A DNA stretch of 64,000 nucleotides. It comes from Phycisphaerae bacterium (lineage in GTDB: Bacteria; Planctomycetota; Phycisphaerae; UBA1845; DATKUK01). The DNA lies in contig DATKUK010000102.1 of assembly GCA_035530655.1 (NCBI GenBank), positions 143,199 to 207,198 of the forward strand. Direction: 5' to 3'. A program made the translations under genes and the position numbers. The notes beneath the pieces were generated by a model. The model worked only from the letters and a program-made list of their open reading frames with translations. It did not search any database and was not told where the DNA came from. Every line of letters starts with the position of its first letter. Within the stretch, counting starts at the first letter, position 1. Of this stretch, positions 878 to 64,000 are shown in pieces.

Positions 878-2092
878 TTAGCGGGGAGGCACATAAGGAA
901 ATATTTCCGTCCCGTTAATCACACCATAAACGTATCGCTGGTGCTCATTAAATGGAAATTCTTTTACATCATATCCATCAAATAGGCTAATTGAAGACAT
1001 CCCGTTGACGAATATCACGAATACACAAACCAGGTAGATATTACCCGATGTTGCTATGGGCTCAGTGGTGCACCTGCGTCTATATGCAATATGCAGCATA
1101 AGAAAGCTAGTTGTCACTGCCAATGTGTTCCATCTATGCATATCCCAACCCACATTGTGCAACAGCAGTGGGGATAAAGAGGCAAGGATAGATAGTAATA
1201 CAAAATACGCTTTAGTCTTTGATTTCCTTAAAATAGAAGTTGAAAAATAAATAAAGACCAGAAAGGCAGGGCCCGTAACGACGCATGAACGTAACAAGTC
1301 TATATATCTCCTCTTGTGCGACCACATTTCTTTCATGATGTCAAGAGTATCTTTTGAAGTTCTATGTAATACATCGAAAGCCGTTTGTCTTAAAGGATGT
1401 TCTATGCTCGCCTGTAGGCTATTGTACATTTTATGTGCTTCTGAAGTCTCCAAGGTAGAGGCGGATACAAATAATCCAAGAGCAAGCAACGCGGCCGAGA
1501 ATAAGCCCAATAGTAGAAGTTTCCTTATGCGCTCCTCGGACTCGATGCTAAATAGAAGTGACATGAAAACAATAGGGAAGAATACAACGATAATGGCTTC
1601 ATGAACCAGCAGAGCCACGGCCATTGATGGCAATGAAAAGAGTAGTTTTTTATAGAAACCAGTTATGTTTAATGTTACTAACGCAAACAGCAAGCCTACA
1701 TGGTCGCAATATCCAATAGAATGAGATAGAAAAACAACAGCAAGGCTAGATGCATAAATCAACGAACAGCCAAGAAGCGCTGGCTCGGCGCTGCGAATGA
1801 AATCTCGTATTAAAATGCTCAAAAGGATAATGTTTATAGAACAAATCACTATGCTGACAATAAGGAAACATTCGTATGATATCGGATAATGATTATTAAG
1901 GTGGCTGAAAAGTGCACCAATGAACCCTCTTTTTGTAAAGCCGAAGTCATAGTTAAATAGGAAATGACTGTAAGACCATATGTTTGGAAAACGGATTCCC
2001 CTGAGAATAGATAAGAATAATAGTACAGATGCGAGCAAACGCCAGAGTGTGATGTCACAACCTGAATTCATTATTGGCTTGGTATTGCGCAT
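878..2092 (-). CDS. AT-rich polytopic integral membrane protein (about 10-12 TM helices), possibly a Wzy/EpsG-like polysaccharide polymerase or ligase (speculative)
   Basis: A 404-aa ORF with many hydrophobic segments. The gene is conspicuously AT-rich against a GC-rich background, which suggests horizontal origin. I recognise no catalytic motif. Confidence 0.65.
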   Translation of the reverse strand: MRNTKPIMNSGCDITLWRLLASVLLFLSILRGIRFPNIWSYSHFLFNYDFGFTKRGFIGALFSHLNNHYPISYECFLIVSIVICSINIILLSILIRDFIRSAEPALLGCSLIYASSLAVVFLSHSIGYCDHVGLLFALVTLNITGFYKKLLFSLPSMAVALLVHEAIIVVFFPIVFMSLLFSIESEERIRKLLLLGLFSAALLALGLFVSASTLETSEAHKMYNSLQASIEHPLRQTAFDVLHRTSKDTLDIMKEMWSHKRRYIDLLRSCVVTGPAFLVFIYFSTSILRKSKTKAYFVLLSILASLSPLLLHNVGWDMHRWNTLAVTTSFLMLHIAYRRRCTTEPIATSGNIYLVCVFVIFVNGMSSISLFDGYDVKEFPFNEHQRYVYGVINGTEIFPYVPPR

Positions 2093-2424
2093 GAACTGTT
2101 TCCTGATGCGGCTAACGTGATGCGGTCAAGTCATAACTGTCCTGTCACATCGTTTTGACGTTGGCTCCTTGGCGGTGGGCTACGCTGCCCGTTTCGGTTC
2201 GGGACTGGCCGAAGACCTCTTGCCATAGGGCGTCGGTGCGTCGTTCGGTGAGTGGGGCCATCGGCACACGGTGCCAGCGTCGCGACGCCGCGGGGGCGAC
2301 CAAGAGAGATCGTCCAACCCAGATCCCCAAGTTGCTTCGGCACCCAGACGCGTGAGTCGCGCTTGGTGAAGTACACCGACAACCACTTGCGACGCGTCCA
2401 GTTGTCGGATTGGCCCACTCGGCC

Positions 2425-3576
2425 TCATTGATTCTCTGCTGATCCATCGGCATCTCCCGAGCGTCCTGTCCCCTTAACGTGATGCGTCAACCCAGTTTGC
2501 CCGCGTCGGCGGGACGCAGAGGTTGGCGTGTCCGCTTCCTTGTGCAACCAATCCAAGAGGGTGCGCGCCGCCTCGAACTGGCGGAGGACTTTGCCTGGGT
2601 CGGGTGTGGCGCCGGTCCAAGCAGGCCTGGGCCCGTCACTGGAGTCTGTGATGACGGTCGTCCACAGCGACAGATTGAGCACGTCTCGCGTCACGGAAAG
2701 CTCATCCAACTCCTCTCCCGCGCCTCGTCGTATCGTCCACATCAGGTCACGCATCTGCCTGCCGCGCAGAGGCACCGCGGCGAAGCGTTCCCAGACGGTC
2801 TGCTCCGCCAGGCGCGACGCCGCAAGATAGAGCGCCGCAACAGTGCTGTCACCTGCTTCTCCGGCGACCCGGAGAAATCGCGTAACGCTCCGCGCGCTGC
2901 TCTGGGGAATCTTCCGCCAGATGGCGTACGCGCCCGCAGGCAGTCGCTGGTACGTCGTCCTGAGGATGTCGAGAGATCCCTGCATGTGCCGGCCGTCTCG
3001 AATATGCCGTTCAGCAATGCCAAGCTGCTCTGTGCAGTAGGTGATGACCTTGTGCAGCCAGAGCTGGGCGAATCGGTCGGTGTAGAACGTCTCGTTGCAC
3101 CGATCCAGGAACGCGTGAACGCAACCACCGAAGTCGTGGGTGGCACGGGCGCCCGCCGATTTGATGACGATGCCCAGCCAGTGCGGATGCTCCAGCCTGG
3201 CAAAGAAGGCATCGTCGGACTCCGTCACCGCCTCAGACAGATCCCTCGCCAGAACGACCCATCCAGACGCTTCTATGTCGTTTGGGATCCCCTGCTGATA
3301 CAGGCGGTCGTTGCGTTTGTGTTCCTCCGCCCGGACCAGGTCCTCCGGATCTCGACCACGCCAGGCGTCCGCCGCGATCAGCATGTCGATATCCGAACAG
3401 GGCCAATGGCTGCCGCGGCCCACCCCGCCAATGACTGCTACACCCCTCACGTACGGCAGGAGAGCGAAGTGGTGGGATTCCTCAGACGCAACTCGCGCAA
3501 TTCGCTCACGCCACCCGTCAAGCACGGCGTCTGCGGACAGCTCTGCCCACGGATAGTCGGGCCATTCCATCGCCAT
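2425..3576 (-). CDS. pol-beta superfamily nucleotidyltransferase, AadA/ANT(3'')-like N-terminal domain with a long helical C-terminal extension
   Basis: The motif IGGVGRGSHWPCSDIDMLI aligns with AadA YGSAVDGGLKPHSDIDLLV (the G[SG]...SDIDhh nucleotidyltransferase signature). The 383-aa protein is longer than a typical ANT. Confidence 0.7.
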   Translation of the reverse strand: MAMEWPDYPWAELSADAVLDGWRERIARVASEESHHFALLPYVRGVAVIGGVGRGSHWPCSDIDMLIAADAWRGRDPEDLVRAEEHKRNDRLYQQGIPNDIEASGWVVLARDLSEAVTESDDAFFARLEHPHWLGIVIKSAGARATHDFGGCVHAFLDRCNETFYTDRFAQLWLHKVITYCTEQLGIAERHIRDGRHMQGSLDILRTTYQRLPAGAYAIWRKIPQSSARSVTRFLRVAGEAGDSTVAALYLAASRLAEQTVWERFAAVPLRGRQMRDLMWTIRRGAGEELDELSVTRDVLNLSLWTTVITDSSDGPRPAWTGATPDPGKVLRQFEAARTLLDWLHKEADTPTSASRRRGQTGLTHHVKGTGRSGDADGSAENQ

Positions 3577-3673
3577 GGGTTCTCGTTCCCTGCCCTGTCG
3601 TCGTCAGGCCAACGGCGGCCATCTCCCGCGGGAAAGCGGCGCAGCGGATTTCCCGGCCTTCTGGATCGCGCAG

Positions 3674-4261
3674 TTAGTGACCCATCTGCCCGGATATAGT
3701 CTCCATGATCCTCGCGTTCGCAATGGGTTCGATGGCGAAGCGATTCCGCAGGTAATCCAGCATCAGCTTCCCTTCCTCCTGGCTGGTGCCCAAAATCGCG
3801 TCTCCCGCAAGGATGATCTTGAAATCCCGCTCATACGCCTCGACCGTCGTAAGCCCGACACACGCATTTGTGGAAAAGCCCGCGACGACCACCGTATCCA
3901 CGGCGCGGGCGAGAAGGACTGCCTCAAGCTCGGTTCGGATAAACGCGCTGTGGCGGGTCTTGCGCATGACAACATCTGTGTTGCGTCGGTGGACCTCGGG
4001 ATGCTCCTCGGCCTCGGGTGTCCCTTCGATCAGGCGCGGCGTGTCGTGCTCTTTCATCCACTGATTCCAGGTGCTTCCATCGGCCTTGTGGACGGTCAGT
4101 ATACGGACGACCGGCAGGTCTCTATCCTGAAAGAAATCGATCAAAGCGTTCGCGTTGGCGATCAATCTTCCAACGCGCGCAAGCTTCTCGGCAGGCCCCA
4201 CTTCCAAAAACCAGTGTTGCAGGTCGATTACAAGCAGTGCCGGTCTCATCATCTCTAGCAC
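3674..4261 (-). CDS. isochorismatase-family (cysteine hydrolase) protein
   Basis: It has the start LLVIDLQHWF, a conserved Lys-containing region, and GFSTNACVGLTTVEA carrying the catalytic Cys, which is typical of the isochorismatase/YcaC fold. It is 195 aa. Confidence 0.8.
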   Translation of the reverse strand: MLEMMRPALLVIDLQHWFLEVGPAEKLARVGRLIANANALIDFFQDRDLPVVRILTVHKADGSTWNQWMKEHDTPRLIEGTPEAEEHPEVHRRNTDVVMRKTRHSAFIRTELEAVLLARAVDTVVVAGFSTNACVGLTTVEAYERDFKIILAGDAILGTSQEEGKLMLDYLRNRFAIEPIANARIMETISGQMGH

Positions 4262-4905
4262 TCACGTGTGCAGGATGTGCCTCCAGGGCCGCGGGCCTTG
4301 GAAGTCAAGCGCATGCAATTGTTGGAGACATTCGGTAGCCCACATTCAAAGCGCCGGTATCCGAACGTCTCGAAGTCCTCGCGATCGTACTGCCACACCA
4401 GCTTCTCGTCCTCCATCGTGAAGAAGTCGAAGAAATTGCCCTCGGCGGGGCGGAACCCGCCCGCATTGTTGTGCGGGAAGGGCGGAATGTTGTCCTTGTC
4501 AACGAAGGGCAGCTCCCCGAGACACTGCGGCAGCCTTTCGAAGTACAGAACCAAATCCACACCGCCCTTTTCCACAAAGCTCTTCTGGCTCATGTGGTGC
4601 CCGGTCGGCTCTGTTCGACGCTGGGCAATGGCCCGATGCATCTTTTCCGCCAGGCTCTTCGGCCTGGGTGGTTCTTTACCCGTCTTGATGACGGGCTCGA
4701 AGAACCAGCCACTTACCGTCCTCTCGTATGGGTTCCGCACGATCGTGACGACCAGGTAGTCCTCGAACTCCGCTGGGACCTGCCAGTCATGGTGCCCGCC
4801 TACGTTTTCGCTCCCGTAGTTGTCCTTCAGCCACTGGAACATGGATTTGGAACCCGTCCGCGGCATCCCGATGTAGACGACCTTGTGTGCTCTCGAAACG
4901 TGCAT
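4255..4905 (-). CDS. sulfotransferase-family protein (PAPS-dependent)
   Basis: The 5'-PSB-like P-loop is VVYIGMPRTGSKS and the 3'-PB-like motif is IVRNPYERTVS. It is 216 aa. Confidence 0.7.
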   Translation of the reverse strand: MHVSRAHKVVYIGMPRTGSKSMFQWLKDNYGSENVGGHHDWQVPAEFEDYLVVTIVRNPYERTVSGWFFEPVIKTGKEPPRPKSLAEKMHRAIAQRRTEPTGHHMSQKSFVEKGGVDLVLYFERLPQCLGELPFVDKDNIPPFPHNNAGGFRPAEGNFFDFFTMEDEKLVWQYDREDFETFGYRRFECGLPNVSNNCMRLTSKARGPGGTSCTREC

Positions 4906-4939
4906 GCCAAGTCTCCAACGTTGCGGCTGGTGCGTGCTA

Positions 4940-5575
4940 TCAGCCGTCGCTGCCAGCCGGCGGTTGGGGCCTTCCTTTCGGTTTCCAGCCCGAAAGCTTG
5001 CCGGTTTCGTGTGATTCCAGCCAGGTGCGTAGTTCCTCCAATGTGCGCACGTTGTCGTCGAGAACGGCCCGATAGAGATCGACCGACGGACACCGCAAAC
5101 TCGGGGCCTGAACCCTCAATTCCTTCAGCTCAAGTATGATCGTTCGGGTCTCGTCTGTAAGGGCTGCTCGCATGGGTTCAACGAGGTGCTCGCCTCGCGG
5201 CAGGCCGTAATCGGTTGGGGCAGACCACATATCGACCTTCCATTCCATGCCGTCGTCCTGCCTGTAGCGAAGCTGCCAGTACAAAGCCTTGTCTCGTCCC
5301 GCCAGTTCGTTCGAGAACCGCGCCTTGGTTACCCTCTGATTGAGGGCGCACTCGCCGAGCACCTCGAATCCGTGTTCGACCTTCAGATCCGAGCAGTATA
5401 TCTCCATATCGATATCAGGATCAACCAAGAGGTCGCAGGCAAAAGCGCCAACAAAAACCGGCCGGCCGAACCTCTGCCATCTGCCGACGAGATCGAGATC
5501 CGCAACGATGCTCTCCGCAACTCGCTTCCTGTCTGCTGCTCGTCCAATCACATCTGTCATTTCTCGTGGACCCAA
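4940..5575 (-). CDS. nucleotidyltransferase-fold protein (Lnu/ANT-like small-molecule nucleotidyltransferase candidate)
   Basis: VGAFACDLLVDPDIDMEIY resembles the hG[SA]...[SD]DhDh nucleotidyltransferase motif. It is 211 aa. The true start may be the internal Met (MTDVIG). Confidence 0.55.
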   Translation of the reverse strand: MGPREMTDVIGRAADRKRVAESIVADLDLVGRWQRFGRPVFVGAFACDLLVDPDIDMEIYCSDLKVEHGFEVLGECALNQRVTKARFSNELAGRDKALYWQLRYRQDDGMEWKVDMWSAPTDYGLPRGEHLVEPMRAALTDETRTIILELKELRVQAPSLRCPSVDLYRAVLDDNVRTLEELRTWLESHETGKLSGWKPKGRPQPPAGSDG

Positions 5576-5584
5576 TCCTGAGCG

Positions 5585-6118
5585 TCAGCGGCACCTGTTA
5601 GGGCGTCGGCTGCAAGCCCACTCCAATGCTTCCTGAGCGATAATCTCGTATGCAGCACTCTTGTTCATGATGTATTCCTCCCGTGCTGCGGCTGCACTGG
5701 CCGCCTCCCTCTTTCGTTGTGCTAACCACTGGGCGCGTTCGCCGTTGCCTTTGAGATACTCGCGGAAGGCCAAGTGCTTGCGCAGCTCAGGCGAATCCGA
5801 TTCACAGGCGTACAGATGATGGCCGGGCAGCTCGGCGGCCGCTGAGTGTGGCAAGGGCGCGAACGCTTCGCGGGTCGAAATACCCCCGTCGCCTTCATGC
5901 ATATAGCCGGTAGCAGCTAACGCCTTTATCACGTCGGACATGGACCCACCGGGGCATTCGACATCGATGTCGATGATATCCTTGGACGGCATGCCCGCAA
6001 CAGACGTGGACCCGACGTGATGGAACCGGCATCCAGCGGGGAGATGCGGACGAAGCATCGTGACTATAGAGTCGAATCGCTCCGACCAGTCAGGGTTGTA
6101 CTCTGTGATGTATCGCAT
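5585..6118 (-). CDS. GrpB-family protein (UPF0157, nucleotidyltransferase-like fold)
   Basis: HHVGSTSVAGMPSKDIIDIDV is the GrpB signature. It is 177 aa. Confidence 0.75.
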   Translation of the reverse strand: MRYITEYNPDWSERFDSIVTMLRPHLPAGCRFHHVGSTSVAGMPSKDIIDIDVECPGGSMSDVIKALAATGYMHEGDGGISTREAFAPLPHSAAAELPGHHLYACESDSPELRKHLAFREYLKGNGERAQWLAQRKREAASAAAAREEYIMNKSAAYEIIAQEALEWACSRRPNRCR

Positions 6119-6225
6119 GGCATTCGTGGGCTGACACTGCGGATCAGACGCGGCTGTAGCCCATCGCCCGCATCTGCCTCTTCTGGGAATACTGACCTAT
6201 ACGAGTCTACTCTTCGGCCTCTCGA

Positions 6226-7008
6226 TCAATTCTCTTCCGGCTTCCTGCACTGAACCGTTATTGCGCCAGCCTCCTTGCTCGGAGGATCGTCGGTCAGCCA
6301 GTGTGTCGCTCTTATGTCTCTGAATCCTGCCGATGTGGCATACCGTACGGCCTCATCAACAGTGAAGAAACAACCCCATCTCTCATTTGCTTCCGTTTCG
6401 ACCAGGCGCCCGCGAACAAACTTCTCCACCACAAACAACCTTTCCCACACATGGGTGGTGGCATCGTACTTATTCCTGTTTCGCCATGCGATGACCACAT
6501 CATCAGGCCCCGTCACCCAGTCACCGGCCCATCTGCCATCATTCTGATTCGTATTGTCTTCGGCGGGCACAGGCGCGAATTCATAGACAAATAAACCGCC
6601 CGGCTTCAAATGCGCCATCACTCGTTCAAATGTTGAATGTATATCCTGATCGCGGGTGAAAAGGCCGAGTCCGCCTGAATCCAGAAAGATCAGGCCAAAG
6701 TCCCGAGGAAGATCGAATTCCAGCATCGATTGCTGGTGCAGTTCCGCCTTCAGGCCATTTGCCTCGCATGCGGCGAGACATTTTGCCATCATGTCCTCAG
6801 ATGTATCGATTCCGACGATGTGAAAGCCTCGCTCAAGAAGGGGAACAAGAACCCTGCCCGTGCCGCTCCCAAGCTCCAGTATGGGCTCGCTTGATGCTTC
6901 TATGCATTTCACCCAGAACTCGATCTCTTCGCTGTGATCCTTGCTGCCGGAGACCAGTTCATACCATTCGGCATGCAACTTCCGATACTCTTTATGGTCC
7001 ATGATCAA
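6226..7008 (-). CDS. class I SAM-dependent methyltransferase
   Basis: Motif I is ILELGSGTGRVL and the post-I acidic motif is VGIDTSEDM. It is 260 aa. Confidence 0.8.
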   Translation of the reverse strand: MIMDHKEYRKLHAEWYELVSGSKDHSEEIEFWVKCIEASSEPILELGSGTGRVLVPLLERGFHIVGIDTSEDMMAKCLAACEANGLKAELHQQSMLEFDLPRDFGLIFLDSGGLGLFTRDQDIHSTFERVMAHLKPGGLFVYEFAPVPAEDNTNQNDGRWAGDWVTGPDDVVIAWRNRNKYDATTHVWERLFVVEKFVRGRLVETEANERWGCFFTVDEAVRYATSAGFRDIRATHWLTDDPPSKEAGAITVQCRKPEEN

Positions 7009-7118
7009 CTCCCATAACGTCCTGCGTGAGCGGCGCGGTTAGCGACCTTGCATGCATGCCGTGATTAGCATTCGTGGGCCCGGCCGCACTTCTCACCTTC
7101 GCGGTTCGGCTCCACCCT

Positions 7119-8156
7119 TTACGTTGCCCATCGTGAGAAGTCCACGTCGACAAACGGGACATCGTTCTCGAAACTGCTCTTCATCCAGGCGAATGTCCTG
7201 TCATGGCGGCCGACGCTTCCGAAGTCCTCCGTCGCACAAGGGGAAGTGGCGAGCATGGAGAGCTCTCTCGCTTTCAGGAAGAGAGGCAAGGACGCTGCCC
7301 ATCTTCGGTCCAACACGTGTTCCTGCCGGTAGCCTTCCATGAACGCATCGAGGAACTCTGCGGCACGCAGGGCCGAGTCGCGCGGCTGGCTGTCCGGGGT
7401 CTTCCATACCCAGAAGAAAAGCGCCGAGCCGATCTCTGACGCCAGCCCTGAGTAGTGGGCACATTCAAAGTCGATAACCACGGGACCGTCCGCCGACACG
7501 AGAACGTTGCCGCCGTGCAGGTCGTTATGTACGGGACCGTGGTCGACGGCAGGTAATTCCTCCAACGCCGCGCGCAGCTCGATGCACCTGGCGATCACGC
7601 GAGGCATCGACGGGTGTATGACGTCCGCCGGCGACTTGAACCAGGGCATGTCCGACCACATGCTCAGTTTGGCGCCGGCCGCGGCAGGCGAGTAGCCGAG
7701 GGAAACGCGATGCATCTTGCCGGCCAGCCGCCCGACAGGGCCAATGACCTCGCGGCTGTTGGGACACTCCTGCCACAGCCGACCCTCGATCCTTTCAAGG
7801 CAATAGGCGCTGACGTGCCATCCGTCCACGACCTGCGACTCGATCAGATTACCGTCGAGCGATCGGCATGGTTGCGGAACCGCGACGCCGCCGGCGTGGA
7901 GATGCGCCATCCAGTCAATCTCGCCGAGCAACAGCGGGTGGCGACTCTCGGCGGACGGAAGCACCTTGAATATGACCTCACCCGTCGGCGCCGGAGACCT
8001 GTAGACAAAGTTCCGGTGATCTTGTATCAGCGTAAGCGAGTTCATGGCCAAACCGAAACGTTCAGCCAGTTCTGGCAACGCACCGGTCAGAAGAATCTGT
8101 CTCGATCTATCGTCCATGGGGCGCAGCAATCTGGTGCTTTCCCATGCTTCTGTCAA
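7119..8156 (-). CDS. aminoglycoside phosphotransferase (APH)/choline-kinase-like small-molecule kinase
   Basis: The Brenner/catalytic motif is VHNDLHGGNVLV and the metal-binding motif is VIDFE. It is 345 aa. Confidence 0.8.
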   Translation of the reverse strand: MTEAWESTRLLRPMDDRSRQILLTGALPELAERFGLAMNSLTLIQDHRNFVYRSPAPTGEVIFKVLPSAESRHPLLLGEIDWMAHLHAGGVAVPQPCRSLDGNLIESQVVDGWHVSAYCLERIEGRLWQECPNSREVIGPVGRLAGKMHRVSLGYSPAAAGAKLSMWSDMPWFKSPADVIHPSMPRVIARCIELRAALEELPAVDHGPVHNDLHGGNVLVSADGPVVIDFECAHYSGLASEIGSALFFWVWKTPDSQPRDSALRAAEFLDAFMEGYRQEHVLDRRWAASLPLFLKARELSMLATSPCATEDFGSVGRHDRTFAWMKSSFENDVPFVDVDFSRWAT

Positions 8157-8579
8157 GAACCGCGAACATCGGCCAGTGGAAGCTCAGGAAACCGCTCCAC
8201 TGGGTTGCCGATGCTGTCTCTCCTGGCCCGCGATCGAAGACCCCCTTGAGAAACGACGCGAGCCTCGCGCCTGTTGCGCAAACGAGTTAATCCTGCAATT
8301 GTGCGGGGCCAACCTCGCCGCAGAGGTCGGACGCTTCGGCAAATGCTTCCAGGTTGACGGCGGACAGCAACAGGATGCCGACAATTGACTTCCGGGTCAG
8401 AAACCAATGGACCACCTCGTGGACCGGGGTGAAGGCCAGAACCTACGGATCCGGACCGCCAAGCACGCGGACAAACGCTTGCCGAACCGCTAGCCTGCCG
8501 GACAATAGAACGATGATAGCTCGCGACGGTCGCGGGTAGGAGTTGTCTGGGAAACCCCGGCTAAAGGATAAGCAGGACT

Positions 8580-63777: not shown

Positions 63778-64000
63778 CTTGTCTCGGGCAGGACCACCGG
63801 TCAGGGCGGGCTCGCACGGACCGCCATATCCGGCCTCTGCGCCTAGCACACCGGTTCTGGCGATCGGGTAGCCGGGTCGGTTGCCCTGACCCGGCTCCCA
63901 CACCACCGTACGTACGGTTCCGTATACGGCGGTTCACGAGGAACACGCAAGACGTCGATGCTCTTCCATCAGGCTGATGAGGCCCAGTCCGCGCAACTCA

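What the first reader, a model, noticed from the sequence alone, without database searches (positions are those of the whole stretch)
2425..8156. Tight co-directional cassette of seven small-molecule-modifying enzymes, a candidate multi-drug or xenobiotic inactivation island (or an orphan tailoring cassette)
Seven minus-strand genes sit with very short or overlapping junctions. In order they are an AadA/ANT(3'')-like nucleotidyltransferase, an isochorismatase-like hydrolase, a PAPS-type sulfotransferase, a second nucleotidyltransferase, GrpB, a class I SAM-methyltransferase and an APH-like kinase. Each family has members that inactivate antibiotics. ANT and Lnu do so by nucleotidylation, APH by phosphorylation, and the isochorismatase-like SttH hydrolyses streptothricin. 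Sulfotransferases of the StaL type sulfate glycopeptides, and O- or N-methylation is another route. The region has no core biosynthetic gene such as PKS, NRPS or sugar synthesis. It adjoins a transposase remnant and an AT-rich foreign-looking gene. A seven-enzyme array like this is unusual. It may be one operon acting on a shared substrate class, for example sequential adenylylation, phosphorylation, sulfation and methylation of an aminoglycoside-like or nucleoside-like compound.
Basis: partly seen in the sequence, partly recalled or inferred. Interest (0 to 1): 0.7.

Follow-up and report, generated by a model that had tools for sequence, protein, structure and literature searches.

The report
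Patchwork array of small-molecule-modifying enzyme genes
Seven same-strand genes for a kinase, a methyltransferase, three nucleotidyltransferase-fold proteins, a sulfotransferase and a cysteine hydrolase really do sit together in this Phycisphaerae genome, but close relatives show the array is made of five separately gained and lost blocks, so it is not one seven-step pathway and no gene belongs to a proven resistance family.

Summary
Seven intact minus-strand genes fill 2425-8156, separated by 116, 107, 24, 34, 2 and 97 nt, with no hairpins between them. The broad family calls are right: APH, class I SAM methyltransferase, GrpB, a Pol-beta-fold nucleotidyltransferase (NT2), Sulfotransfer_2, isochorismatase-like hydrolase, and a second nucleotidyltransferase (NT1). 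The finer labels are not. NT1 lacks the AadA C-terminal domain. NT2 resembles TUTase and CD-NTase folds, not Lnu. The sulfotransferase is Sulfotransfer_2, not StaL-type. The kinase is closest to amicoumacin kinase AmiN. No gene reaches the cut-off of any curated NCBIfam resistance family.

Comparative data argue against a single seven-gene pathway. An orthologous locus (81-89% nt identity) keeps five collinear blocks: APH, MT, GrpB+NT2, ST+ISO, and a flanking MiaB-like gene. It differs by gene-sized insertions or deletions placed exactly in the spacers. NT1 lies elsewhere in other relatives, including as Tn3 cargo. In 62 genomes carrying NT2 homologues, the other six genes are essentially absent within 10 kb. 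GC3 is uneven (0.59-0.78 against a background of 0.775). No attC sites were found.

Best reading: a flexible accessory islet of stand-alone enzymes, plausibly for detoxifying or inactivating outside compounds. That function is inferred, not shown. Interest is modest.

The parts
7119..8117 (-). APH-fold kinase resembling amicoumacin kinase AmiN/YerI. It is 332 aa from the ATG at 8117; the longest ORF from a TTG reaches 8156. Block 1.
   Evidence: Pfam APH 3.4e-23. Best solved relative is amicoumacin kinase 6SUI, E 2.7e-29, aligned over residues 27-342. No NCBIfam family reaches its cut-off. The orthologue in L069 is 81% identical at protein level.
6226..7002 (-). Class I SAM-dependent methyltransferase of the small-molecule amine N-methyltransferase type. 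Block 2, and the most compositionally deviant gene in the array.
   Evidence: Methyltransf_25 1.2e-15. Daptide MTase model 3.7e-25 but 88.8 bits against a cut-off of 175. PDB relatives include MtfA 3G2M, CcbJ, TylM1 and DesVI. GC3 is 0.586 against a background of 0.775 +/- 0.034.
5585..6118 (-). GrpB-family protein with a nucleotidyltransferase fold and no known substrate. Block 3, together with NT2.
   Evidence: Pfam GrpB 1.8e-33. PDB 2NRK 1.5e-14. It is adjacent to NT2 in L066, L067, L068 and L069, but absent upstream of NT2 in L080.
4940..5560 (-). NT2, a 206-aa Pol-beta-superfamily nucleotidyltransferase from an unannotated but highly conserved family. Block 3.
4255..4905 (-). Short (216 aa) family-2 sulfotransferase, presumed PAPS-dependent. 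Block 4, together with ISO.
   Evidence: Sulfotransfer_2 at 22.8 bits against a cut-off of 22. 24 of 25 family members hit only this family. PRTGSKS and RNPYERTVS motifs are read from the sequence. Relatives at 65-69% identity are not next to ISO or NT2.
3674..4252 (-). Isochorismatase-like cysteine hydrolase (amidase type). Its start lies 2 nt after the ST stop. Block 4.
   Evidence: Isochorismatase 1.5e-35. All NCBIfam hits (YcaC-like, BiuH, RutB, PncA) are far below their cut-offs. PDB relatives are cysteine hydrolases and N-carbamoylsarcosine amidases. The tight ST-ISO junction is kept in L069, L080 and L109 and was present in L066 before an IS cut it.
2425..3576 (-). NT1, a 383-aa nucleotidyltransferase with a large helical C-terminal domain, from a rare family. 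Block 5.
   Evidence: NTP_transf_2 E 0.007 for this protein; 25 of 30 family members hit it and none hits AadA_C. The AF2 model has pLDDT 91. Best Foldseek hit is ANT(4') at E 1.4e-3, TM about 0.5. The profile matches KNTase at E 0.0016 over 33 residues only. Relatives lie in other contexts.
8118..8579 (.). 462-bp non-coding region between the kinase gene and the divergent GH36 gene. It is the only large gap and the likely promoter region for the array.
   Evidence: No sigma-70-like site was found here, and the scan was at chance level overall. The promoter role is inferred, not shown.
2374..2447 (.). Relic of the array's ancestral right-hand boundary. It matches the region just upstream of, and overlapping, the 3' end of the MiaB-like gene in the orthologous locus.
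   Evidence: 77% identity over 74 nt to L069 9012-9084, E 9e-11. In L069 that segment overlaps the 3' end of the MiaB-like gene.
878..2092 (-). AT-rich 404-aa integral-membrane ORF. It is a later insertion between the array and the MiaB-like gene and is not one of the enzymes.
   Evidence: GC 0.399 and GC3 0.405. About 9-10 hydrophobic segments. No family hit. L069 lacks it and has only 824 bp with an ICMT-like gene there.

Best explanation
The region is a flexible accessory-gene islet at a fixed chromosomal site in a Phycisphaerae genome, between a GH36 gene and a MiaB-like gene.

It is built from five separately inherited blocks: APH kinase, SAM methyltransferase, GrpB+NT2, sulfotransferase+cysteine hydrolase, and NT1. 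Each block encodes an intact stand-alone enzyme or enzyme pair.

The blocks face the same way, and their spacers carry no hairpins. They are therefore probably read through from the 462-bp region upstream of the kinase gene, possibly with internal starts in the three spacers of about 100 nt. This is inferred.

Each enzyme most likely acts alone on outside or stray small molecules. The expected reactions are phosphorylation, N-methylation, nucleotidylation, sulfation and amide hydrolysis. Together they would form a chemical-defence or detoxification toolbox, not a sequential pathway. This too is inferred from family and from the company the genes keep.

Shown here: the genes and their families, the block structure, gene-by-gene turnover between close relatives, the loss of linkage in distant relatives, the uneven base composition, and the absence of attC sites. 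Not shown: the substrates, any resistance phenotype, and co-transcription.
For: - Block structure: blastn of the window's contig against orthologous L069 gives five collinear blocks at 81-89% identity (APH, MT, GrpB+NT2, ST+ISO, MiaB-like). Between the blocks the window has 42, 12, 38 and 3953 bp. L069 has 2447 bp (MBL-fold, Flavodoxin_2 and GNAT genes plus two small ORFs), 1058 bp (AF_0692), 343 bp (an 80-aa ORF) and 824 bp (ICMT-like).
- Other close relatives differ again. L066 has GNAT-CYTH-AF_0692-GrpB-NT2-ST, followed by ISO cut by a transposase. L080 has a TIM-barrel gene, an FMN-reductase-like gene, then NT2-ST-ISO.
- NT1 is a separate block. At 88.6% nt identity it follows a 3keto-disac_hyd-type gene in L113. 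At 60-65% protein identity it sits in a GNAT-hydrolase-MT array beside an IS110, or as Tn3 cargo with a resolvase and an Acetyltransf_9 gene.
- In 62 genome loci carrying NT2 homologues (39-69% identity), the other six genes are essentially absent within 10 kb. Only four weak hits were seen, to GrpB, MT or ISO.
- The 99 immediate neighbours of those NT2 homologues fall into 141 Pfam families. GNAT and methyltransferase families are the commonest. The Paenibacillus neighbours are DJ-1, an AadA-like nucleotidyltransferase, a GNAT, an AAA_33 kinase and a HAD hydrolase.
- ST relatives at 65-69% identity lack both ISO and NT2.
- GC3 is MT 0.586, NT2 0.656, GrpB 0.669, ISO 0.714, NT1 0.721, APH 0.743 and ST 0.783, against a background of 0.775 +/- 0.034.
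- Enzyme type: the kinase resembles AmiN, the methyltransferase resembles natural-product N-methyltransferases, and NT1's best fold matches are antibiotic nucleotidyltransferases.
- No spacer folds better than shuffled sequence (z +0.4 to +2.0), and no terminator-like site lies in a spacer.
Against: - No gene reaches the cut-off of any curated resistance family, so the detoxification or resistance role rests on class-level resemblance.
- NT2's fold is closest to RNA-tailing and cyclic-nucleotide synthases, not to drug-modifying enzymes. GrpB has no known substrate.
- The ST-ISO junction (0-2 nt) and the GrpB-NT2 adjacency are kept in the close clade, so these two pairs may be functional units.
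- The direction of each insertion or deletion is unknown.
- Only four or five related contigs are informative, and all come from metagenomes.
- There is no expression or biochemical data.
Confidence: 0.55

Rival explanations
1. All seven genes form one operon whose products act in turn on a shared substrate class, for example adenylylation, phosphorylation, sulfation and methylation of an aminoglycoside-like or nucleoside-like compound.
For: The genes are co-directional with short spacers of 2-116 nt and no hairpins between them. Six of the seven are kept in the same order in L069.
Against: Gene-sized insertions and deletions interrupt every block boundary between close relatives. NT1 lies elsewhere in a relative at 88.6% nt identity. 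Linkage is essentially absent in 62 more distant loci and around ST relatives. GC3 is uneven. No transporter, regulator or substrate-supplying gene travels with the array.
Confidence: 0.07
2. Only the conserved sub-core is a true functional unit. GrpB+NT2 and/or ST+ISO would form a small new pathway, for example a nucleotidylated or sulfated intermediate processed by the cysteine hydrolase. The other genes would be unrelated passengers.
For: NT2-ST-ISO adjacency is seen in the window, L069, L080 and L109, and in L066 before an IS cut ISO. The ST-ISO junction of 0-2 nt is kept in all of them. GrpB-NT2 adjacency is seen in the window, L066, L067, L068 and L069.
Against: The linkage holds only in relatives with at least about 75% NT2 identity. 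It is absent at 73% and below (L071, L004-L065) and around ST relatives at 65-69% identity. L069 has an extra ORF between NT2 and ST. L080 lacks GrpB. This shallow conservation can be explained by recent common descent alone.
Confidence: 0.18
3. The genes have unrelated housekeeping or metabolic roles, such as cofactor salvage, amidase activity or metabolite repair. They simply accumulated at a site that tolerates insertions, with no defensive or detoxifying theme.
For: No curated resistance family is matched. NT2 is unusually well conserved across phyla, which suggests a specific conserved substrate. The ISO hits are to generic amidases. GrpB occurs fused to dephospho-CoA kinase in other bacteria.
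Against: The genes are patchily distributed, compositionally foreign and variable between close relatives. They are associated with IS and Tn3 elements. Relatives' arrays are consistently enriched in GNAT, MBL-fold, NQO-type flavodoxin, HAD, APH and methyltransferase genes. No housekeeping equivalog reaches its cut-off either.
Confidence: 0.15
4. The array is an integron-like or other site-specific cassette array, or a nucleotide-signalling anti-phage defence system built around the nucleotidyltransferases.
For: Gene-sized insertions and deletions fall exactly in the spacers. NT2 has a fold like CD-NTase and OAS. NT1 gives weak HalB and MNT matches.
Against: No attC-like inverted repeats were found. 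No spacer folds better than shuffled sequence. No integrase gene was seen among the genes examined around the array. Two junctions (2 nt and 24 nt) leave no room for a recombination site. PADLOC gave no meaningful hit for six of the seven proteins and only a generic methyltransferase-domain hit (mad2) for the MT. NT2 homologues have no conserved effector neighbour.
Confidence: 0.04

Closest known systems
Chromosomal runs of antibiotic-modifying-enzyme homologues (intrinsic resistome) in soil bacteria such as Paenibacillus and Bacillus. The general phenomenon is cited from my own knowledge (for example Pawlowski et al. 2016, Nat Commun, Paenibacillus sp. LC231).
   Same: Co-directional runs of small stand-alone group-transfer enzymes (GNAT, nucleotidyltransferase, kinase, hydrolase) with variable content. 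NT2 homologues in Paenibacillus sit among DJ-1, AadA-like nucleotidyltransferase, GNAT, AAA_33 kinase and HAD genes.
   Different: The host here is an uncultured Phycisphaerae. No gene matches a curated resistance family. No activity has been tested. Two of the seven proteins, NT1 and NT2, belong to families without a significant Pfam or NCBIfam match.
Amicoumacin kinase AmiN/YerI (PDB 6SUI, 6SUM)
   Same: Full-length APH-fold similarity (E 2.7e-29, residues 27-342). The catalytic HxDLHxxN and DF[DE] motifs are kept.
   Different: The alignment shows only distant similarity. Substrate-binding residues were not assessed. No amicoumacin-related context is present.
Kanamycin nucleotidyltransferase ANT(4')-Ia, with AadA, AAD(9) and LinB
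   Same: NT1 has an N-terminal Pol-beta nucleotidyltransferase domain plus a helical C-terminal domain. These enzymes dominate its fold matches.
   Different: The matches are marginal (E about 1e-3, TM 0.33-0.55). NT1 is about 100-130 residues longer. No AadA_C domain appears in any of 30 family members. The sequence match to KNTase covers only the 33-residue catalytic motif.
Terminal uridylyltransferases (Cid1, TUT7) and CD-NTases (DncV, CdnB, CdnG)
   Different: NT2 is only about 200 aa, against 290-400 aa or more. It hits no CBASS or PADLOC model and has no conserved effector or partner gene. Sequence identity is 9-15%.
Integron gene-cassette arrays and attC clusters without an integrase
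   Same: A co-directional array of small accessory genes in which close relatives differ by whole genes.
   Different: There are no attC-like repeats or hairpins and no integron integrase nearby. Two junctions are too short for a recombination site.
Transposon-borne and plasmid-borne multi-resistance islands
   Same: Mosaic make-up, IS or transposase remnants at the edges, and NT1 relatives carried as Tn3 cargo.
   Different: This array sits at a fixed chromosomal site. There is no intact mobile element around it. NT1 has no plasmid match, and NT2 has only distant ones (under 31% identity, mostly annotated 'hypothetical protein', some unannotated).

Membership tests
AadA / ANT(3'') aminoglycoside adenylyltransferases (claimed for NT1) | An N-terminal NTP_transf_2 domain followed by the AadA_C (DUF4111) C-terminal domain, in a protein of about 260 aa | tested here: not met
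   NT1 gives NTP_transf_2 at E 0.007, below cut-off, and no AadA_C hit. None of 30 family members hits AadA_C. Foldseek matches to AadA have E 0.14-0.4. No NCBIfam hit. NT1 is 383 aa.
Lincosamide nucleotidyltransferases (Lnu), considered for NT2 | Sequence or fold similarity to LnuA, LnuB or LinB | tested here: not met
Pol-beta superfamily nucleotidyltransferases (NT1, NT2, GrpB) | The nucleotidyltransferase fold with a G[SG]/GA motif, a DxD motif and a third carboxylate | tested here: met
APH / phosphotransferase enzyme family (PF01636) | A Pfam match above cut-off and the catalytic HxDxxxxN and DFx motifs | tested here: met
   83.1 bits against a cut-off of 23.2. HNDLHGGN and IDFE are read from the sequence and align with AmiN.
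Curated aminoglycoside or macrolide phosphotransferase resistance families (NCBIfam, which includes resistance-gene models) | A score above the family's curated cut-off | tested here: not met
   The best NCBIfam hits are homoserine kinase at 38 bits against a cut-off of 271, and other families far below their cut-offs. No APH resistance model is listed.
Isochorismatase-like cysteine hydrolases | A Pfam match and the Asp-Lys-Cys catalytic triad | tested here: met
   123.3 bits against a cut-off of 27. IDLQ, RKTRHS and TNACV are read from the sequence. The positions were not checked on a structure.
Streptothricin hydrolase SttH | Specific similarity to SttH beyond the general fold | not tested
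   No SttH sequence or model was identified in the libraries used. The NCBIfam hits are to YcaC-like, BiuH, RutB and PncA models, all below their cut-offs.
Sulfotransfer_2 (PF03567) sulfotransferases | A Pfam match plus the 5'-PSB and 3'-PB PAPS-binding motifs | tested here: met
   22.8 bits against a cut-off of 22. 24 of 25 homologues match only this family. PRTGSKS and RNPYERTVS are read from the sequence. PAPS use is inferred.
StaL-type or Sulfotransfer_1/3 glycopeptide sulfotransferases | A match to those Pfam families or to StaL structures | tested here: not met
   No such Pfam hit in 25 family members. No PDB sequence match at E <= 1.
Class I SAM-dependent methyltransferases | A Rossmann-fold methyltransferase domain with motif I | tested here: met
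   Methyltransf_25 at 58.4 bits against a cut-off of 27. LELGSGTG is read from the sequence.
Conserved operon or pathway (all seven genes as one unit) | The genes stay linked across relatives beyond what recent common descent explains | tested here: not met
   the array has a block structure with gene-level turnover, and linkage is lost in distant relatives.
Integron cassette array | attC recombination sites after the cassettes, and usually an IntI integrase | tested here: not met
   No inverted-repeat family lies in the spacers. Spacer folding z-scores are +0.4 to +2.0. No integrase gene was seen among the genes examined next to the array.
Anti-phage defence systems (PADLOC models, including CBASS cyclases) | A match to a defence-system protein model, plus partner genes | tested here: not met
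   Only a generic methyltransferase-domain hit (mad2) and one hit at E 0.004. NT2 has no conserved partner.

The most novel reading that the evidence does not exclude
The short, highly conserved NT2 family has no Pfam model and a fold like TUTases and CD-NTases. It might be a new kind of minimal nucleotidyltransferase with a specific conserved substrate, either a nucleotide or RNA 3' end or a widespread natural product. In this clade it might work with GrpB and the tightly coupled sulfotransferase-hydrolase pair as a previously undescribed small modification pathway. Alternatively, the site might be a cassette-capturing hotspot that uses a mechanism other than attC/IntI.
Probability: 0.1. Interest if true: 0.6.

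Novelty: new member of a known kind. Interest (0 to 1): 0.3.

Why it matters
If the enzymes do modify antibiotics or other outside compounds, the locus shows how an uncultured planctomycete lineage builds and reshuffles a chemical-defence toolbox one gene at a time. It also points to two unannotated nucleotidyltransferase families (NT1 and NT2) and an AmiN-like kinase as candidates for new drug-modifying activities. As it stands, this is an ordinary example of a variable accessory islet. The comparative data remove the more exciting idea of a seven-step pathway.

Tried and rejected
1. Integron or attC hypothesis. The repeat search and DNA folding of all spacers found nothing, so it was rejected.
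2. Defence-system hypothesis. The PADLOC scan was negative apart from a generic methyltransferase-domain hit.
3. Exact-sequence look-ups of the TTG-start versions of APH and NT2 found nothing, because gene callers use later ATG starts. The GrpB and enolase look-ups succeeded.
4. Single-sequence and profile searches of NT1, NT2 and ST against PDB sequences gave nothing useful, apart from the 33-residue KNTase motif for the NT1 profile.
5. Plasmid searches. NT1 had no match. NT2 had only distant matches below 31% identity, mostly annotated 'hypothetical protein' and some unannotated.
6. Literature searches on GrpB with nucleotidyltransferase, on amicoumacin kinase, and on the planctomycete resistome returned nothing directly useful. 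One of them was badly phrased.
7. The sigma-70 promoter and intrinsic-terminator scan was at chance level.
8. The metagenome scan added only three short informative contigs: L080, L109 and L082.

Full report
**What is there.** Identical contigs from several metagenomes carry the same array (L001-L003). A 100%-identical protein is labelled 'Phycisphaerae bacterium' on a 207-kb contig (P0008 and P0121). I used the start codons chosen by gene callers on those contigs. The genes, in order of transcription, are:
- APH kinase, 7119-8117
- methyltransferase (MT), 6226-7002
- GrpB, 5585-6118
- NT2, 4940-5560
- sulfotransferase (ST), 4255-4905
- isochorismatase-like hydrolase (ISO), 3674-4252
- NT1, 2425-3576

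The spacers are 116, 107, 24, 34, 2 and 97 nt. A 462-bp gap separates the kinase gene from a divergent GH36 gene. An enolase gene lies beyond that.

**Family assignments.**
- Pfam confirms Isochorismatase (1.5e-35), GrpB (1.8e-33), Methyltransf_25 (1.2e-15) and APH (3.4e-23). Sulfotransfer_2 just passes its cut-off, at 22.8 bits against 22. 24 of 25 ST homologues hit that family and no other.
- NT1 gives only a sub-threshold NTP_transf_2 hit. However, 25 of 30 of its homologues hit that family, 16 hit Polbeta, and none hits AadA_C.
- NT2 has no Pfam, NCBIfam or PADLOC hit. Its AlphaFold model (pLDDT 90) is a Pol-beta-type nucleotidyltransferase.
- The NT1 model (pLDDT 91) matches ANT(4') kanamycin nucleotidyltransferase best, but only marginally (E 1.4e-3, TM 0.33-0.55). 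GlnE, HalB, LinB, AAD(9) and AadA follow. The NT1 family profile matches KNTase only over the 33-residue catalytic motif.
- The kinase aligns over nearly its full length with amicoumacin kinase AmiN (6SUI, E 2.7e-29) and keeps the catalytic motifs.
- The methyltransferase's closest solved relatives include the natural-product amine N-methyltransferases MtfA, CcbJ, TylM1 and DesVI.
- The hydrolase's relatives are generic cysteine hydrolases and N-carbamoylsarcosine amidases.
- NCBIfam includes curated resistance-gene models. In it, none of the seven proteins reaches any family cut-off.

The finer labels (AadA/ANT(3''), Lnu, StaL or Sulfotransfer_3, SttH) are not supported. All seven proteins keep their expected catalytic motifs, read directly from the translations, so none looks like a pseudogene.

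**Is it one unit?** I fetched 62 genome loci that carry NT2 homologues at 39-69% identity. They come from Planctomycetota, Chloroflexota, Omnitrophota, Desulfobacterota, Synergistota, Firmicutes and Actinomycetota. I then searched them for all seven proteins. Apart from four weak hits to GrpB, MT or ISO, none of the other six genes lies within 10 kb of NT2. The 99 immediate neighbours of those NT2 genes fall into 141 Pfam families. GNAT acetyltransferases (about 6) and methyltransferases (4) are the commonest, and GrpB appears twice. NT2 therefore has no conserved partner.

**Close relatives.** These are more informative.
- Contig L069 carries orthologues of six of the genes in the same order, at 72-89% protein identity. 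Nucleotide alignment resolves five collinear blocks at 81-89% identity: APH, MT, GrpB+NT2, ST+ISO, and a flanking MiaB-like gene.
- Between the blocks the window has 42, 12, 38 and 3953 bp. L069 has 2447 bp carrying MBL-fold, Flavodoxin_2 and GNAT genes plus two small ORFs. It then has 1058 bp with an AF_0692-family gene, 343 bp with an 80-aa ORF, and 824 bp with an ICMT-like methyltransferase in place of NT1.
- L066 has GNAT-CYTH-AF_0692-GrpB-NT2-ST, followed by an ISO gene cut by a transposase.
- L080 has a TIM-barrel gene and an FMN-reductase-like gene directly upstream of NT2-ST-ISO, with no GrpB.
- L109 has NT2-ST-ISO.
- L071, whose NT2 is 73% identical, has HAD, Flavodoxin_2, APH and a P-loop protein before NT2, and then integrase and phage-like genes.
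- NT1 is a fifth block. At 88.6% nucleotide identity it follows a 3keto-disac_hyd-type gene in L113, not ISO.
- At 60-65% protein identity, NT1 closes a DUF3795-GNAT-alpha/beta-hydrolase-methyltransferase array next to an IS110 transposase (L073). In L076-L078 it sits as Tn3-family cargo after a resolvase and an Acetyltransf_9 gene.
- ST relatives at 65-69% identity are not beside ISO or NT2.

The only adjacencies kept throughout the close clade are ST-ISO, with a junction of 0-2 nt, and, less strictly, GrpB-NT2.

**Composition and boundaries.**
- Third-position GC is uneven across the array: MT 0.586, NT2 0.656, GrpB 0.669, ISO 0.714, NT1 0.721, APH 0.743 and ST 0.783. Nineteen long genes elsewhere in the window give 0.775 +/- 0.034. 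This fits separate, partly recent acquisitions.
- Downstream of NT1, positions 2374-2447 match the segment that overlaps the 3' end of the MiaB-like gene in L069 (77% over 74 nt).
- It follows that the AT-rich 404-aa membrane ORF (GC 0.40, about 9-10 hydrophobic segments) was inserted later, between the array and the MiaB-like gene. A weak IS1380-like fragment at the very left edge of the window came with it.
- The MiaB-like gene has a different C-terminal tail in the two lineages.

**Mechanisms considered for the mosaic.** I tested the integron idea directly. There are no attC-like inverted repeats. None of the window's spacers folds better than shuffled sequence, with z-scores from +0.4 to +2.0. 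Two junctions are too short to hold a recombination site. No integrase gene was seen among the genes examined next to the array. The same folding result, together with the absence of terminator-like sites in the spacers, is compatible with read-through transcription of the whole array. Co-transcription was not shown.

**Interpretation.** The array is best read as a flexible accessory islet at a fixed chromosomal site. It is assembled from stand-alone enzymes, or enzyme pairs, that are gained and lost one block at a time. Relatives' arrays repeat the same enzyme classes: GNAT, MBL-fold, NQO-type flavodoxin, HAD, APH, methyltransferases and nucleotidyltransferases. Some members are associated with IS elements or Tn3. 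The kinase resembles AmiN and the methyltransferase resembles natural-product N-methyltransferases. Together these points make a role in modifying outside small molecules (antibiotics, toxins, xenobiotics) the most plausible theme.

This remains an inference from family and context. No protein meets a curated resistance-family threshold. NT2 looks structurally more like RNA-tailing enzymes or cyclic-nucleotide synthases than like drug-modifying enzymes. GrpB has no known substrate.

The idea of 'one operon on a shared substrate' is not supported. A smaller functional unit (ST+ISO, GrpB+NT2) cannot be excluded, but its conservation is no deeper than recent common descent would give.

**Novelty and score.** Variable islets of resistance-like accessory enzymes are a known kind of genome feature, and this is a new example in an uncultured Phycisphaerae. 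The two nucleotidyltransferase families without a significant family match are worth a biochemist's attention. NT2 stands out because it is 50-69% identical across phyla. The locus as a whole is not surprising. Interest is 0.3.

Noticed in passing
window 4940-5560 (-); relatives L004-L065 and P0001-P0120: NT2 belongs to a widespread family with no Pfam or NCBIfam model. Members are 50-69% identical across at least seven phyla, and three carboxylates are invariant. The fold is closest to TUT7, DncV and CD-NTases, but the protein is only about 200 aa. Some members carry a C-terminal DUF3795 fusion (P0076, P0104). There is no conserved neighbour.
   Followed up: partly
L076-L078 (gene at about 8001-9113 in L076); L073 8001-9113: NT1 relatives at 60-65% identity are carried as cargo of a Tn3-family transposon (transposase, resolvase, Acetyltransf_9 GNAT, then NT1). 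Others sit at the end of a GNAT-hydrolase-methyltransferase array beside an IS110 transposase.
   Followed up: partly
window 878-2092 (-): A 404-aa ORF with GC 0.40 (GC3 0.405) in a genome of about 63% GC. It has about 9-10 hydrophobic segments and no hit in Pfam, NCBIfam or PADLOC. It is clearly foreign, and its function is unknown.
   Followed up: partly
window 2374-2447; L001 11381-11572 (window positions before 1 up to 72); L001 11715-13112: A 74-nt relic next to NT1 matches the region at the 3' end of the MiaB-like gene in L069. The MiaB-like gene in the window's genome has a different C-terminal tail. An IS1380-like fragment (DDE_Tnp_1_4, E 0.005) lies between them. An insertion therefore displaced the old gene end.
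   Followed up: yes
window 63863-63934 (-): An Rfam group II intron match (RF00029, 44.3 bits against a gathering score of 40, E 2e-5), far from the array.
   Followed up: no
L071 7501-16689; L072: A 73%-identical NT2 gene lies at the edge of an integrase, DnaB-like and Terminase_4 gene set, which suggests a prophage or integrative element.
   Followed up: no
L069 6721-7016: An 80-aa hydrophobic ORF is inserted between NT2 and ST in the relative. It is followed by the only strongly folding spacer hairpin seen (z -3.8).
   Followed up: no
L069 4446-5453; L066 2023-3024: A 333-335-aa protein recorded in the precomputed Pfam hits as PF27245 (AF_0692) precedes GrpB in two relatives and is missing in the window. 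It gave no hit in the Pfam copy searched here.
   Followed up: no
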